The translations under genes were made by a program, and so were the position numbers. Shown here one piece after another: positions 29,532 through 61,064 of a stretch of 64,000 nucleotides of DNA; positions within the stretch are counted from its first letter, which is position 1, and every line of letters starts with the position of its first letter. The notes beneath the pieces are model-generated. The model was not told where the DNA came from. It was given only the letters and a program-made list of their open reading frames with translations, and did no database searches. This DNA is from the human T2T-CHM13v2.0 reference genome, Homo sapiens. The stretch lies in the NCBI RefSeq assembly GCF_009914755.1, contig NC_060941.1; one strand, written 5' to 3'.

Positions 29532-29644
29532 AGGGTGGTGGGTTTGGGACACACTTCATGAATTAGACAGATAATAATGTATCACATACTTGCATGGGAT
29601 CCTCCAGGTGATGTAGCAGCACTTACTGATGTTGTCATTCATAT
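29532..29644 (-). pseudogene. Psi-C: isolated CC-chemokine cysteine exon
   Basis: ctgcttctttccAG|AT ATG AAT GAC AAC ATC AGT AAG TGC TGC TAC ATC ACC TGG AGG ATC CCA TGC AAG TAT...TGT CCC AAA CCC ACC ACC CT|GTGAGT; reads MNDNISKCCYITWRIPCKYVIHYY / LIHEVCPKPTT with one frameshift. Confidence 0.8.
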
Positions 29645-29939
29645 CTGGAAAGAAGCAGGTGGAAGTAGGGCTAAGCCATGCTCTAGGAGACTCAGACATG
29701 CTACTCCGTGCACCAAGAATGGGAGGCAATGCCTTTCACTCAGACAAGAAACACACCTAAAGCCAAAATACTAAATTACCTACAGCCACTGGAATCTGCC
29801 ATTTCTCTTGTGTAAGTTGTTCATCATCATTGAATAATAAACCCACTCACACTTTATCCCTACCAGGAACCTCACTCTCGCTTGACCAAATCCACTATCC
29901 TTTTTTTTGTGTAGGAGAAAAAATAAGGATCTTTATTTG

Positions 29940-30460
29940 TGAAGGAGTTAAGAATATGCCGCCCAAAATTCACTGTTCTGGCATATTTTAAATTAAAGGC
30001 ATGTAAAAAAAGAACCCAGCAGGTGCAAGAAGATCCTTCTTTATTTTGACCTTTATTGTCTTTATCAAAGGCAGGAAATGAAATGCCCATGTGAAAGATG
30101 TCCTCCTTATACCGAAAGAAAAATAATATTCTTATTAAGGATGGGAAGCTGAAGCCGAGAGAAGTCTACACAAACAAACCTTATCACCTTAGTCATTTCT
30201 GTACCCAATTAATCACCCAGCGCAGCCCCTTTGCCTTATCACATTTCACAACTTCCTATTTTTTGTCCAATTCAGTGTATAAGTAACTGACCCTAACTGC
30301 TTCTTTGAGTTTCTGTTCCTTATGAGGGATCTTGTGTCATGTAAAACTTGTATTAACTAAATTTGTGTACTTTTCTCCTATTAATCTATCATATGTCAAT
30401 TTAATTCTTGAGTCCAGGTGGGATCTTAAGAAAATGGAGATGGATTTTTGCCTCTCCTAA
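29940..30460 (+). mobile_element. ERV1 LTR (MER34-like)
   Basis: Starts tgaaggagttaagaatatgcc; family from memory. Confidence 0.55.
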
Positions 30461-31150
30461 GTTTGGTAGGTGCTTTCTATATAATGTGTTATTTAATTCT
30501 CCCCTAAACTCTAAGAGGTTGATGTTCTTGTTCCATTAGGAACATAAACTTGGCAAGCCTTGGTAAGGTTAAGGAACTTGTTGGCGTTAACCCATTGTTA
30601 AGTGGCTGAGACCTGAAACCGGGATGTCAATTCCAAGTCCCAAGACTTAACTTCTTCACCAACATTACTAACTCGTTTGGCTGCAAGTGTCATTTACCCT
30701 CTGAATGAGTTTCCACACCTGTGAAGAGGAGATTGATGCTTTCTCTCTGGCAGGGTAGTTGTGAGATTAGAAATAATGTATGTAAAGCACAAACCTGGCA
30801 TGACTACCATTTTTATTAAGCATTTATTCTGTGCCAGGTGGTGTTCTATGAGCTTAAATGTATGTATTAATTAATTTAACCATCACAACAAACTTGCATT
30901 GTAGATGTTATTATCATCTCCATTTTATAGAGAAGCAAACCAAGGCATAGAGAAATTAGGTAACCTGTGAAAGCCACATGGGAGAATAAGTGATAGCTAT
31001 TATTTTCAAAATTGTGATTTCCCATGCATCAAGCCCTTTCTTTGTCCTTCCTTGAGAGCCTCTCTCCTTAATTTAAGCTACCAGGGAAGGAGCAGCCCAA
31101 GAACTAGCCCATTCTGGCTCTTGCTTTTTTCACGGGAGGTTTTACTTTGC

Positions 31151-31460
31151 TTTTTTTTTTTTTTTTTTTTTTTTTTTAGGTAGGGCCTTGTTCTGTCATT
31201 CAGGCTGGAGTGCAGTGGCACAATTATGGCTCACTCCAGCCTAGACCACCTGGGCTCAAGCAATCCTCCCACCTCAGCCTCCTGAGTAGCTGAGACTACA
31301 GGAGTGCACCAGTATGTCTGGCTAATTTTTAAAATTTTGTAGTAGAGATGAGGTGTTACTATGTTTCCCAGGCTGGTTGTGAACTCCTAGGCTCGAGTGA
31401 TCCTCCTGCCTCGGCCTCCCAAAGTGCTGGGATTACAGGCATAAGCCACCACGCCCAGAC
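31151..31460 (-). mobile_element. Alu (AluJ-like)
   Basis: Poly-T followed by reverse dimer. Confidence 0.9.
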
Positions 31461-31845
31461 CTGTTCCACCTTGATTATTCTGTTTCTAGCCCAGTCTCAG
31501 GGCACCCTCATGAATCTCACATAGAGTTAATGTTTAGAAATTACCCGATATTGAATTACAACTTTATGACTCCAAATATTGATTTTGAAGATAATAAAAC
31601 TGTTTAAGTTACAATAATGATGAGGAAATAATTTTTTCAGGTCATAAAGAATCTTTTGTTTTTATGGTAACTTTTTATTTTAAAATAACTTTACACTGAC
31701 ATAGAAATTGCAGAAATAGTACATAAAGTTTCTGTGCAATCTTGACTCAGCTTCCCCCAATGGGAAGCTTATAAAACTTCATATACAACCGTATAAAAAA
31801 TGCATTATGATCATCAAAACTAGAAAATTGACAGTTCTACAATAT

Positions 31846-32165
31846 CATTATCATTATTATTTTTTGAGACAGAGTCTTGCTCTGTCACCCAGGCTGGAGT
31901 GCAGTGGCACCATCTTGGCTCACTGCAACCTCCGTCTCCTGGGTTCAAGTGATTCTTCTGCTTCAGCCTCCTGAGTAGCTGGGATTACAGGTGCTCACCG
32001 CCATGCTTGGCTAATTTTTGTATTTTTAGTAGATATGGGGTTTCTCCATGTTGACCAGGCTGGTCTTGAACCCCTGACCTCAAGTGATCCGCCTGCCTCA
32101 GCCTCCCAAAGTGCTGGGATTACAGGCATGAGCCACTGCGCCCAACCAGCCATCGTGCCCGGCCT
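31846..32165 (-). mobile_element. Alu (AluS-like)
   Basis: Reverse dimer within an L1M fragment. Confidence 0.9.
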
Positions 32166-32513
32166 CTACAATATTATCAACAAAACAGATCTTATTAAAA
32201 TTTTACCAATTTTTACATGCAGTCATTTTTCGTTGGTGTATAGTTGAATCATATGATCCCTTGGGTGTCTATGCCAACTTCTGGCCTCCCACATCTAAGT
32301 TACTGAATCATCTGCCTCCCATGTTTTGGTAAATAACATTCACCCTCCTCCCAGAGCTGCGGTCTTGCTTGACTGGCCCCACTTCCCCTATTCAAAGGAG
32401 AAAGGCTGGAGTTGCAGAAGGAGGCATGGGGAGAATTATGGCTTTATTTTTTATTAGACTATTCTTATTTTAGTAAAGTTGTTTTTGCACACTGGCTCAT
32501 GCAGCAGTGTATA

Positions 32514-59060: not shown

Positions 59061-59159
59061 AAAGTGAAAAACAAATTAACATAATGTATTAGCACAAGGA
59101 TAGGAAAATAAACCATTGGAACAGAACAGAAATTCCAAAAGCAGACCACAAAATCATTG

Positions 59160-59556
59160 AAATCAATAAACCGAGTAAAGCAGATTGCCCTCTCTAATGT
59201 GGTGGGCTTCATTCAATTAGTTGAAGTTCTGAATACAACAAAAAGCCTGACCCTCCTGCCTGTAAGAGGGAATTCCTCTTGCCTGATTGCCTTCACACTG
59301 GGACATAGGTTTTTCTCCTGCCTTTGAACTTAAACTGAAACATCATCTCTTCCTGGGCCTTAAGCCTGCCCATTCTCAGGTCTTTGAACTCAAACTGGGA
59401 CTACACTAGCAGCTCTCCTGGGTCTCCAGCTTGCCAGCTCACCCTGCAGATCTTGGAACTTGTCAGCCTTCATAATTAAATGAGCCAATTCTCTAATTTC
59501 TTATTTTTTATACACACACCATTGGTTCTGTGTCTCTGGGGAATCCTGACTTATAC
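59160..59556 (+). mobile_element. MLT2-like LTR 3' part
   Basis: agtaaagcagattgccctc...attggttctgtgtctctggggaatcctgacttataca. Confidence 0.7.
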
Positions 59557-60144
59557 AATGGTCTTACCAATGAGTTGCCAAGGTCCATTGGGTATTCATG
59601 TGGCAAAAAATAAATCTTGAATCCTTCTTCACACCAAACATAAAAATCAACTCCAGATGGATTGTAATTTAAATATTAATGCTAAAACAATAAAGCTTCT
59701 ACAAGTTAACATAGGAGGATATCTTTATTGCCTTAGGATAGGGGAAGATTTCTCATTAGATCACGAAAGGCCTAACTGTATATAAAAGATTGAAGCATGT
59801 GACTCTCTTAAAAGGAAAAACAATTGTGAAAATCCATTAAAGCATTCTGCTCTATCAAAGGAGGCTGTGACCACTCATTTCTGAGAAATATCTGTCATGT
59901 GAAAACATAATCACATGATTATGCATAATCCTAAGCATAATCCCTGGGTGCTTCCAACTCCTGGTCACCCATCTGGAGATACAACTTCTCCATAAGCCCC
60001 TCAATCAACAAGTGAACCACTCGTTTGTGTACCCTAAACCTTTCAAGTAACCATAGGCAACCCTGGGCTGAGAACTCACATGACACCACCATAGTTAAAA
60101 TGTCTTGCATCAGCACCTCCAATGTTCCCATGGTCCAGTCTGCC

Positions 60145-60151
60145 TATAAAA
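60145..60151 (+). promoter_or_regulatory. CCL18: CCL18 TATA box
   Basis: TATAAAA ~100 nt upstream of ATG. Confidence 0.8.
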
Positions 60152-60246
60152 AGGAGAGACAACAGCTCATACCCCAGAAGGAGGCCAGGAGTTGTGAGTT
60201 TCCAAGCCCCAGCTCACTCTGACCACTTCTCTGCCTGCCCAGCATC

Positions 60247-60313
60247 ATGAAGGGCCTTGCAGCTGCCCTCCTTGTCCTCGTCTGCACCATGGCCCTCTGC
60301 TCCTGTGCACAAG
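60247..60313 (+). CDS. CCL18: CCL18 exon 1 (MKGLAAALLVLVCTMALCSCAQ); remaining exons lie beyond the window
   Basis: gcatcATG start, CCL18 signal peptide, phase-1 GTGAGT donor. Confidence 0.97.
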
Positions 60314-60962
60314 GTGAGTCTGTCATCCATGTGCTTTGATGGCTCCCTGGGCAGAAGTCAGGCGACATCTTCCAAGTGCTGTGGCCTGAAAACCCTCGTG
60401 TGAAATTAGGGATCCTCAAATGGGGTTTCAAAGTGACATCATTGTTTTCTTCAAGAAGGTTGAAAAGCAGTCTATTGATCTGGGCAGCAGGATGGGAGTC
60501 AGAGAAGTTTTATCCTACTGAGATAAATGAGATGGTTGAAGTCTAATTCATTGGGTTATTAGCGTGAGGTAGAATCTAGGTCTATTTAGTTCTCACTGGT
60601 GCTGGTAAGTTTTACAATGACCTCAGCAGTCTCCTAGAGTTCAACCCCTTGGGTAACATAAAAGATGTCTATACTTTTCTCAGCTATCTTGTGATTTAAT
60701 CTATTAGAAAAAAAATTCCCCAAGGAGAGTTAGGAGAAGGGCATAGACTATTCAGGGAGCTTGATTCCCTGTAGCGTAAAATAAAGACTAAAATGGAGAG
60801 ACAAGACTAGGGAAATTAAGGAGAAACAAACAAAAAGCCAGATTATTTCCAGCTTTCTTTTCCTGCAGGCCTCAACTCTGAGCTATGCTGTCTCCCTTTG
60901 CTCCTTTGTGACCCGCCTGGGCTTCTTCTCCTGAGCAACTCCTGTTGTCTTTGTTCCCTCAG

Positions 60963-61064
60963 ATAAGATTCACACCCCATGCATCTGCTGCTTCTCCTAC
61001 ACCTCCCAGTAGATGCACTGCAAATTTTCGGTTGCCTATTATAAAACCAGTGGTGAGCGGTCTT
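60963..61064 (+). pseudogene. CCL18 intron-1 pseudoexon (MIP-1alpha-like exon 2)
   Basis: ttgttccctcAG|AT AAG...; DKIHTPCICCFSYTSQ*MHCKFSVAYYKTSGERS; TAG 61010-61012; truncated by L1M-like sequence. Consistent with the known gene-fusion origin of CCL18. Confidence 0.9.

What the first reader, a model, noticed from the sequence alone, without database searches (positions are those of the whole stretch)
29532..61064. Hidden array of dead CC-chemokine genes between CCL23 and CCL18
Seen: three separate minus-strand chemokine remnants (psi-C, psi-B, psi-A) plus the CCL18 pseudoexon. Each keeps the CC-chemokine exon grammar: phase-1 acceptor, seven full codons before CC, YxxT..C.KP-like core, and FxT..xVCxNP...WVQEY in exon 3 where present. 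Known: CCL3/4/18/23 share this exon structure. Inference: the ancestral locus held at least four more MIP-type chemokine genes, and some may be intact in other mammals. I do not recall annotated CCL pseudogenes here but cannot check.
Basis: partly seen in the sequence, partly recalled or inferred. Interest (0 to 1): 0.9.

Follow-up and report, generated by a model that had tools for sequence, protein, structure and literature searches.

The report
Dead chemokine gene relics beside CCL18
The stretch of human chromosome 17 between CCL23 and CCL18 really does hold several decayed, non-functional copies of chemokine genes, which are ordinary fossils of repeated gene duplication, and at least one of them is already in print.

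Summary
All three minus-strand remnants and the CCL18 pseudoexon are real chemokine-gene relics, far above chance. Evidence: DNA profiles of exons 1, 2 and 3, and whole-gene nhmmer searches, each checked against shuffles and 200 kb of unrelated human DNA.

- psi-A (52821-55035) is a full-length CCL3-like unprocessed pseudogene.
- psi-B (36401-37717) keeps exon 2, intron 2 (split by an Alu), exon 3 and the 3' UTR, and is CCL3-like.
- psi-C (28187-29725) keeps exon 2, intron flanks and a worn exon 3. It matches CCL14 best, not CCL3/4/18.

- psi-E (24116-25049, CCL14-like).
- psi-D (61391-62617), an inverted CCL3-like promoter, exon 1 and exon 2 inside CCL18 intron 1.

All checked exons carry defects: lost start codons, lost splice sites, stops or frameshifts.

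Novelty is limited. The CCL18 fusion and pseudoexons are published (1999, 2000). A 2013 paper states that a CCL3 pseudogene on each side of CCL18 was identified in 2003, which almost certainly covers psi-A. I found no mention of psi-B, psi-C, psi-D or psi-E, and RefSeq lists none. GENCODE and three closed papers could not be checked, and intact orthologues in other mammals could not be tested.

The parts
24116..25049 (-). psi-E. CCL14-like relic holding the end of exon 2, intron 2, exon 3 (about 24520-24633) and the start of the 3' UTR.
   Evidence: Whole CCL14 locus against 24543-25049: 41.0 bits, E 1.2e-13; against 24116-24359: 11.0 bits. Exon-3 profiles: 13.4, 10.1 and 7.2 bits. psi-A as query: 31.5 bits. 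The acceptor reads CAT instead of CAG, and identity to CCL14 exon 3 is 65 of 95.
28187..29725 (-). psi-C. Exon 2 (about 29522-29644) with an intact AG acceptor, seven codons before CC and a GTGAGT donor. It also has a 6-nt deletion, a TGA stop and a 2-nt insertion. Flanking intron sequence and a badly worn exon 3 (about 28803-28942) with 3' flank follow.
   Evidence: Exon-2 DNA profiles: 21.4, 19.3 and 20.6 bits, E 4.5e-6 to 2e-5. CCL14 locus: 29320-29725 at 45.5 bits (E 5e-15) and 28187-28967 at 25.9 bits. CCL14 positions beyond 2179 hold a dispersed repeat, so only the exon-3 part of the second match counts. Pfam found nothing. The stretch is unique in the genome.
36401..36995 (-). psi-B 3' part: end of intron 2, exon 3 (36775-36885) and 3' UTR-like sequence. 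The first exon of the predicted lncRNA LOC105371746 (36646-36732) lies inside it.
   Evidence: Whole CCL3 gene: 81.7 bits, E 1e-25, CCL3 positions 1618-2238. Exon-3 profile: 39.5 bits. blastn to the CCL18 3' part: 59.5% over 560 nt, E 2e-19. Acceptor AG changed to TG, Cys changed to Tyr, indels present.
37004..37384 (.). Alu insertion splitting intron 2 of psi-B.
   Evidence: Masked as a repeat in the hub's table. It matches 20 or more other Alu-like places in the window at 70-87% identity.
37419..37717 (-). psi-B 5' part: exon 2 from the CC codons onward (37632-37717) and the start of intron 2. It has an in-frame TAG and indels. No exon 1 or promoter was found.
   Evidence: Whole CCL3 gene: 25.3 bits, E 1.1e-8, CCL3 positions 1237-1550. 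Exon-2 profile: 8.8-9.3 bits. The exon-1 profiles gave no hit here.
52821..55035 (-). psi-A. Full-length CCL3-like unprocessed pseudogene: promoter, exon 1 (about 54640-54848 with promoter), exon 2 (53816-53941) and exon 3 (53309-53432). Probably the published CCL3-ps on the CCL23 side of CCL18.
   Evidence: Whole CCL3 gene: 353.6 bits, E 9e-108, CCL3 positions 171-2362. blastn: 58% over 1991 nt, E 4e-56. Defects: ATG changed to ACA, indels in exon 1, exon 2 the same length as in CCL3 (115 nt, no indels) but CGG changed to TAG, exon 2 donor GT changed to AT, and in exon 3 a 1-nt deletion plus TGG changed to TGA.
59935..61062 (+). CCL3-like copy 1: promoter, the live CCL18 exon 1 (coding 60247-60313), intron 1 and the known pseudoexon (60959-61063). 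It is cut off 27 nt before the end of exon 2, so its native donor is missing.
   Evidence: Whole CCL3 gene: 198.4 bits, CCL3 positions 94-1317. Pfam IL8: 16.0 bits. Exon-2 profile: 32-40 bits.
61391..62617 (-). psi-D. Inverted CCL3-like promoter, exon 1 (about 62183-62270), intron 1, exon 2 (about 61422-61538) and 30 nt of intron 2, lying inside CCL18 intron 1.
   Evidence: Whole CCL3 gene: 174.6 bits, E 9e-54, CCL3 positions 45-1374. Exon-1 profile: 57.2 bits. End of exon 2 plus donor: 16 bits. ATG lost, acceptor CAG changed to CGG, first Cys codon lost, indels present. Sister of the relic at window coordinates 76535-78804, support 96/95.

Best explanation
The interval between CCL23 and CCL18 is a graveyard of unprocessed CC-chemokine pseudogenes, left by birth-and-death evolution of the MIP sub-cluster.

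The proposed sequence of events is this. Whole gene units of about 2 kb (promoter, three exons, two introns) were copied repeatedly, both in tandem and in inverted orientation. Most copies then lost function through loss of the start codon, splice-site changes, nonsense mutations and frameshifts. They were further eroded by deletion and repeat insertion.

Three relics are CCL3-like: psi-A (whole gene), psi-B (exon 2 to 3' UTR) and psi-D (promoter to exon 2, inverted, in CCL18 intron 1). Two match CCL14 best: psi-C and psi-E. CCL18 itself is spliced from exon 1 of one CCL3-like copy and exons 2-3 of another. It skips the first copy's truncated exon 2, the antisense psi-D and the second copy's dead exon 1.

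Shown here: homology that runs in gene order and includes introns, strand and order of the relics, and the disabling lesions. Inferred: the order of duplications, an old age, and that none of the relics now encodes a protein.
For: Homology in gene order, introns included:
- The whole CCL3 gene matches psi-A (353.6 bits), psi-B (81.7 and 25.3), copy 1 (198.4) and psi-D (174.6).
- The whole CCL14 locus matches psi-C (45.5 and 25.9 bits) and psi-E (41.0 and 11.0).
- Exon 1, 2 and 3 DNA profiles find the same places.
- Controls score far lower: 7.2, 9.2 and 10.5 bits at most in 200 kb of unrelated human DNA. Shuffles reach at most 9.0, 10.1 and 8.1 bits.

Protein level:
- Pfam IL8 half-domain hits for psi-A exons 2 and 3 and for the pseudoexon.
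- My own CC-domain HMM gives 25.0, 17.5 and 9.6 bits for the same three.

Lesions.

Trees:
- The six CCL3-like 5' regions form a clade against CCL4 and CCL23, support 95/97.
- psi-D pairs with the relic beyond CCL18, 96/95.
- psi-B groups with psi-A and that relic, 87/92.
- End branches of 0.24-0.48 changes per site indicate old copies.

Literature: PMC3749542 states that CCL3 has been duplicated repeatedly and that most species hold functional or inactivated copies. It also states that a CCL3-ps lies on each side of human CCL18.
Against: - Pfam finds nothing for psi-B exon 3 or psi-C exon 2.
- At protein level, psi-B exon 2 (4.6 bits) and psi-C (4.0 bits) are within noise. Null maxima reached 5.0 and, once, 11.7 bits in 11 null windows.
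- psi-B exon 2 alone is borderline in the DNA profiles at 8.8-9.3 bits, against a shuffle maximum of 9.0.
- psi-C exon 3 is very worn: 68 of 106 aligned bases with many gaps. Part of its 3' match to CCL14 may come from a dispersed repeat in the CCL14 flank (control locus L039).
- Relationships among the CCL3-like copies are mostly unresolved: 4 of 5 and 3 of 4 inner branches are below support.
- The CCL14 assignment of psi-C and psi-E is tentative. psi-E also matches psi-A at 31.5 bits, and the CCL5 gene was not tested.
- Expression was not examined, so a non-coding role is not excluded.
Confidence: 0.9

Rival explanations
1. The weaker remnants (psi-C, psi-B exon 2, psi-E) are chance resemblances picked out by eye from 64 kb of six-frame sequence.
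For: Pfam finds nothing for psi-C or psi-B exon 3. The protein HMM gives 4.0 and 4.6 bits, inside the null range. A word-based protein search with psi-C found no relative.
Against: The DNA exon-2 profile gives psi-C 19.3-21.4 bits, against at most 9.0 in shuffles (20 per profile) and at most 7.2 in 200 kb of real DNA. The CCL14 locus matches psi-C at E 5e-15 and psi-E at E 1.2e-13, introns included. The CCL3 gene matches psi-B exon 2 with intron 2 at E 1.1e-8, in gene order with its exon 3 at E 1e-25.
Confidence: 0.02
2. One or more of the relics is a live, unannotated chemokine gene or an alternative coding exon of CCL18.
For: psi-C keeps a good acceptor, the CC codons and a consensus GTGAGT donor. 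The pseudoexon keeps its acceptor. RefSeq annotates nothing here, so absence of annotation cannot settle the question.
Against: Every relic exon examined carries a stop, a frameshift or a lost splice site. psi-A and psi-D have lost the ATG. No exon 1 was found for psi-B, psi-C or psi-E. The pseudoexon has an in-frame TAG and lacks its native donor.
Confidence: 0.02
3. The relics have been taken over for non-coding roles. Examples: the psi-D promoter driving antisense transcription inside CCL18 intron 1, or the 3' UTR-like part of psi-B serving as the start of the lncRNA LOC105371746.
For: psi-D keeps a promoter-plus-exon-1 block that scores 57.2 bits against the CCL3/CCL4/CCL18 exon-1 profile. 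Exon 1 of the predicted lncRNA (36646-36732, hub table) lies inside psi-B's 3' UTR-homologous stretch 36401-36995.
Against: The lncRNA is only a predicted model. All copies have long end branches (0.29-0.48), as expected for neutral decay.
Confidence: 0.1
4. The relics are processed (retrotransposed) pseudogenes rather than remains of tandem duplication.
For: None found.
Against: Homology runs through introns and promoters in gene order, for CCL3 positions 171-2362 in psi-A and 45-1374 in psi-D, and for intron 2 in psi-B, psi-C and psi-E. All lie within the parent cluster.
Confidence: 0.01

Closest known systems
Human CCL3-ps pseudogenes on each side of CCL18 (Nomiyama, Egami, Tanase et al. 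2003, J Interferon Cytokine Res 23:37). Known to me only through the Figure 4 legend and text of PMC3749542.
   Same: psi-A is a full-length CCL3-like dead gene immediately on the CCL23 side of CCL18. A matching full-length relic lies on the CCL3 side at window coordinates 76535-78804. This is exactly the published layout.
   Different: The 2013 legend mentions only two such pseudogenes. psi-B, psi-D, psi-C and psi-E are not mentioned there. The 2003 paper is not held, so its content could not be checked.
CCL18 (PARC/AMAC-1) gene fusion and its pseudoexons. Tasaki et al. 1999, Genomics 55:353, cited in PMC7663205. Politz et al. 2000, Cytokine 12:120, title seen in the reference list of PMC9953349.
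   Same: The plus-strand pseudoexon 60959-61063 is exon 2 of the first CCL3-like copy. The dead exon 1 of the second copy lies at window coordinates 65546-65723.
   Different: Between the two plus-strand copies lies an inverted third copy, psi-D. I could not learn whether either paper describes it, because neither is held (the Politz paper is known to me by title only).
CCL3P1 (formerly CCL3L2, LD78 gamma), the named human CCL3 pseudogene
   Same: It is also a dead CCL3-type copy in the same 17q12 cluster.
   Different: According to PMC3749542 it lies between CCL4L1 and CCL3L1, outside this window. Its young age is my recollection, not tested here. The relics in this window are 52-62% identical to CCL3.
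CCL14
   Same: It is the best match for psi-C (45.5 bits) and psi-E (41.0 bits). The matches cover exon 2, intron 2 and exon 3.
   Different: CCL14 is intact and lies on the far side of CCL23 and CCL15. The relics have stops, frameshifts and lost acceptors, and no exon 1 was found for them. Among the other genes tested, CCL15 scored at most 4.4 bits, CCL23 at most 8.5, CCL4 gave 13.6 (psi-C only), CCL3 gave no hit and the 3' half of CCL16 gave no hit. CCL5 was not tested.

Membership tests
CC chemokine gene (Pfam IL8, PF00048) | The IL8 domain is recognised in the translated exons. | tested here: inconclusive
   Each exon holds only half the domain, and the curated cut-off is 21.3 bits. psi-A exon 2 scores 18.8 bits (E 0.0018), psi-A exon 3 scores 15.9 (E 0.015) and the pseudoexon scores 16.0 (E 0.014). 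psi-B exon 3 and psi-C exon 2 give no hit at E up to 10. The intact CCL23 exons score 31.2 and 28.6.
CC chemokine gene (Pfam IL8, PF00048) | Exon 2 starts in phase 1, 23 nt before the adjacent Cys-Cys codons, and ends at a donor just after the third-Cys region. | tested here: met
   Met for psi-A, psi-C and the pseudoexon. Not met for psi-B, where the acceptor is lost and 22 nt precede CC, or for psi-D, where the acceptor reads CGG and the first Cys codon is lost. The reference pattern was read from CCL3; the wider 15-gene exon-2 alignment is.
CC chemokine gene (Pfam IL8, PF00048) | DNA homology with a bona fide chemokine gene that runs in gene order across exons and introns. | tested here: met
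   CCL3 gene against psi-A, psi-B, psi-D and copy 1. CCL14 locus against psi-C and psi-E. The 200 kb of control loci gave no hit to the CCL14 gene body before position 2179.
Unprocessed (duplicated) pseudogene | Introns or promoter are retained, and disabling mutations are present in every copy. | tested here: met
   Lost ATG (psi-A, psi-D), stops (psi-A, psi-B, psi-C, pseudoexon), frameshifts and lost splice sites are.
CCL3-like lineage (CCL3, CCL18 and the published CCL3-ps) | The copy groups with CCL3 and CCL18 to the exclusion of CCL4 and CCL23. | tested here: met
   psi-A and psi-D fall in the clade with 95/97 support. psi-B groups with psi-A and the relic at 76.5-78.8 kb at 87/92; its identity is 54-56% to CCL3-like copies, 46% to CCL4 and 43% to CCL23. 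Not met for psi-C and psi-E: the CCL3 gene gives no hit to either.
Processed pseudogene (retrocopy) | No introns, a poly(A) tail, and a location away from the parent gene. | tested here: not met
   Intron and promoter homology is present, and all relics lie inside the parent cluster.

The most novel reading that the evidence does not exclude
psi-C and psi-E may be the human remains of a CCL14-like (or now nameless) chemokine lineage that once sat between CCL23 and the CCL3 group and is still intact in some mammals. PMC3749542 reports an unplaced gene, CclN1, between Ccl23 and Ccl3a in the guinea pig. If so, the relics would give syntenic anchors for placing such orphan chemokines.

In addition, the inverted psi-D shows that CCL18 was assembled within a minus-plus-minus-plus run of at least four CCL3-like copies, not from two simple tandem genes. 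Its surviving promoter might still fire antisense within CCL18 intron 1.
Probability: 0.2. Interest if true: 0.45.

Novelty: new member of a known kind. Interest (0 to 1): 0.3.

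Why it matters
These relics record how many chemokine genes the MIP sub-cluster once held. They refine the history of CCL18, a gene reported to have orthologues only in primates and of clinical interest.

If psi-B, psi-C, psi-D and psi-E are indeed unannotated, adding them to pseudogene tracks would help in three ways:
- orthology calls in this fast-evolving cluster;
- placing orphan chemokines of other mammals by synteny;
- interpreting variants and non-coding transcripts in the region, namely LOC105371746 and CCL18 intron 1.

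Nothing here points to a new protein or a new mechanism.

Tried and rejected
- **Protein-level scan.** A six-frame scan with a CC-domain HMM built from 56 domains of the hits could not separate psi-B exon 2 or psi-C from noise. DNA-level profiles were needed.
- **First blastn pass.** psi-C found nothing against the window, and the CCL18, CCL3 and CCL4 loci gave no hit to it.
- **A faulty filter of mine.** In one search I dropped any query region with more than 4 hits as 'repeat'. This hid the psi-C and psi-E matches to CCL14. Listing all hits corrected it.
- **Apparent CCL14 match at 25398-25686.** Rejected as a dispersed repeat, because it hits 5 of 20 control loci.
- **Weak hits treated as noise.** The exon-1-like hit at 6998-7039 (7.4 bits) is below the control maximum of 10.5 bits. 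The exon-2-like hit at 37919-37967(+) (7.3 bits) is below the shuffle maximum of 8.4 and about equal to the real-DNA control maximum of 7.2.
- **Fold-back origin of copy 1 and psi-D.** The two abut tail to tail and end at nearly the same gene position. The tree does not support them as sisters: psi-D pairs with the relic at 76.5-78.8 kb.
- **Protein word search with psi-C.** No relatives found, which is weak evidence either way.
- **Sources I could not use.** Nomiyama 2003, Tasaki 1999 and Schutyser 2005 are not held.

Full report
**Setting.** The window is T2T-CHM13 chr17:36952001-37016000 (hub table, confirmed). CCL23 lies at 8963-13877 on the minus strand. CCL18 starts at 60176 on the plus strand.

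**First pass.**
- tblastn with the window's own CCL23 protein found four places:
  - a minus-strand exon-2-like stretch at 53816-53941 (E 1.8e-4);
  - an exon-3-like stretch at 53355-53405 (E 0.25);
  - the plus-strand CCL18 pseudoexon at 60986-61057 (E 0.14);
  - a weak minus-strand match at 29559-29627 (E 2.6).
- A motif scan found WVQEY at 36806-36814 on the minus strand.
- Pfam IL8 (cut-off 21.3 bits) scored psi-A exon 2 at 18.8 bits, psi-A exon 3 at 15.9 and the pseudoexon at 16.0. It found nothing for psi-B exon 3 or for psi-C. The intact CCL23 exons scored 31.2 and 28.6.
- A CC-domain HMM built from 56 domains of the hits gave 25.0, 17.5 and 9.6 bits for the same three. It gave only 4.6 (psi-B exon 2), 4.0 (psi-C) and 1.7 (psi-B exon 3). 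The 11 null windows had maxima of 1.2-5.0 bits, and 11.7 once.
- At protein level, therefore, only psi-A and the pseudoexon stand out.

**DNA level.** The whole genome is held as G000. I fetched CCL18, CCL3 and CCL4 and the exon 2 regions of 11 other human CC chemokine genes.

Exon-2 DNA profiles (acceptor to donor) gave:

| Element | Bits |
|---|---|
| psi-A | 58-80 |
| pseudoexon | 32-40 |
| psi-C | 19.3-21.4 (E 4.5e-6 to 2e-5, nearly full profile length) |
| fragment at 61420-61467(-) | 16 |
| psi-B exon 2 | 8.8-9.3 |
| 20 shuffles per profile | 9.0 at most |

- Exon-3 profiles gave psi-A 55-63 bits, psi-B 39.5 bits, and a new candidate at 24566-24633(-) with 13.4, 10.1 and 7.2 bits.
- Exon-1/promoter profiles gave psi-A 40.2 bits and a minus-strand hit at 62202-62391 with 57.2 bits. 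They gave nothing for psi-B or psi-C.
- In 200 kb of unrelated human DNA (20 loci), the maxima were 7.2 bits (exon 2), 9.2 (exon 3) and 10.5 (exon 1).

**Whole-gene searches.**

The 2.4-kb CCL3 gene as nhmmer query over window coordinates 1-83000:

| Element | Window coordinates | Bits | CCL3 positions |
|---|---|---|---|
| psi-A | 52821-55035(-) | 353.6 | 171-2362 (whole gene) |
| psi-B, 3' part | 36401-36995(-) | 81.7 | 1618-2238 |
| psi-B, 5' part | 37419-37717(-) | 25.3 | 1237-1550 |
| copy 1 | 59935-61062(+) | 198.4 | 94-1317 |
| psi-D | 61391-62617(-) | 174.6 | 45-1374 |
| copy 2 | 65090-65352 and 65507-67486(+) | 32.9 and 527.0 | 3-304 and 294-2370 |
| full-length relic outside the window | 76535-78804(-) | 354.0 | 44-2365 (whole gene) |

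The two parts of psi-B are separated by the Alu at 37004-37384.

The CCL14 locus as query:

| Element | Window coordinates | Bits | CCL14 region |
|---|---|---|---|
| psi-C | 29320-29725(-) | 45.5 (E 5e-15) | exon 2 with intron flanks |
| psi-C | 28187-28967(-) | 25.9 | exon 3 and flank |
| psi-E | 24543-25049(-) | 41.0 (E 1.2e-13) | end of exon 2, intron 2, exon 3 |
| psi-E | 24116-24359(-) | 11.0 | start of 3' UTR |

- The CCL14 flank beyond position 2179 is a dispersed repeat that also hits control locus L039. The window stretch 25398-25686 is a repeat as well. Those parts are discounted.
- For psi-C and psi-E, CCL14 is the best of the genes tested. CCL15 scored at most 4.4 bits, CCL23 at most 8.5, and CCL4 gave 13.6 for psi-C. 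CCL3 gave no hit, and the 3' half of CCL16 gave no hit. psi-A gave 31.5 bits for psi-E. CCL5 was not tested.
- The psi-C stretch is single-copy in the genome.

**Lesions.**
- psi-A: ATG changed to ACA and indels in exon 1. Exon 2 is the same length as in CCL3 (115 nt, no indels) but has CGG changed to TAG and its donor GT changed to AT. Exon 3 has a 1-nt deletion and TGG changed to TGA.
- psi-D: ATG lost, acceptor CAG changed to CGG, first Cys codon lost, indels present.
- psi-B: an in-frame TAG in exon 2, exon 3 acceptor AG changed to TG, Cys changed to Tyr, indels present, and no exon 1.
- psi-C: acceptor, seven codons, CC and a GTGAGT donor are kept. It also has a 6-nt deletion, a TGA stop and a 2-nt insertion. 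Its exon 3 is badly worn.
- psi-E: acceptor CAG changed to CAT, and the WVQ region is lost.

**Relationships.**
- Six CCL3-like 5' regions (CCL3, copy 1, copy 2, psi-A, psi-D and the relic at 76.5-78.8 kb) form a clade against CCL4 and CCL23, support 95/97.
- Over 1.3 kb, only psi-D plus the 76.5-78.8 kb relic is resolved (96/95). End branches are 0.29-0.40 for the six CCL3-like copies.
- psi-B groups with psi-A and that relic at 87/92.
- The strand order of the CCL3-like copies around CCL18 is psi-A(-), copy 1(+), psi-D(-), copy 2(+), then the relic(-).
- A fold-back origin of copy 1 and psi-D is not supported by the tree. However, the pseudoexon and psi-D share CAC TGC AAA TTT at a site where CCL3 reads differently. 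I cannot explain this.

**What is known.**
- The CCL18 fusion of two MIP-1alpha-like genes is Tasaki 1999, cited in PMC7663205 (passages read).
- 'Pseudoexons ... of AMAC-1' is Politz 2000. I saw only its title, in a reference list.
- In PMC3749542 (passages and figure legends read) the text says most species hold functional or inactivated CCL3 copies. [quoted passage not shown]
- That layout matches psi-A and the relic at 76.5-78.8 kb.
- Searches for 'CCL3-ps', 'CCL3 pseudogene', 'CCL3-like pseudogene' and 'CCL3P1', plus three broader chemokine-pseudogene, CCL18 and pseudoexon searches, turned up no mention of further relics in this interval.
- The 2003, 1999 and 2000 papers, the figures and the supplement were not readable. 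GENCODE cannot be consulted here.

**Verdict.** These are ordinary unprocessed pseudogene relics of a birth-and-death gene cluster. Four of the five appear to be unreported and unannotated, which gives modest value for annotation and for chemokine evolution.

Noticed in passing
window 24116-25049 (-): psi-E is a fifth chemokine relic outside the finding's span. It is CCL14-like and holds the end of exon 2, intron 2, exon 3 and the start of the 3' UTR (41.0 bits, E 1.2e-13).
   Followed up: yes
window 61391-62617 (-): psi-D is an inverted CCL3-like promoter, exon 1, intron 1 and exon 2 inside CCL18 intron 1. It abuts the pseudoexon copy tail to tail across a unique 328-bp spacer (61063-61390).
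   Followed up: yes
window 60995-61010 (+) and about 61470-61485 (-): The pseudoexon and psi-D share the string CAC TGC AAA TTT (a Cys codon) where CCL3 has CCA CAG AAT TTC. Yet the tree does not pair them. This could be local gene conversion or chance.
   Followed up: partly
window 36646-36732 (-): The first exon of the predicted lncRNA LOC105371746 lies inside the 3' UTR-homologous part of psi-B (36401-36995).
   Followed up: partly
L027/L028, window coordinates 76535-78804 (-), outside the window: A full-length CCL3-like pseudogene lies between CCL18 and CCL3 (354 bits to the CCL3 gene). It is presumably the second published CCL3-ps, and it lies within the span of CCL3-AS1.
   Followed up: partly
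window 25398-25686, and L005 oriented positions beyond 2179: A dispersed repeat is shared by the CCL14 3' flank, this window and 5 of 20 control loci. It mimics paralogy.
   Followed up: yes
window 37975-38300 and 46395-46740: The stretch just upstream of psi-B exon 2 matches an inverted stretch at 46.4-46.7 kb (59.6 bits). It is probably an old repeat that replaced the 5' part of psi-B.
   Followed up: no
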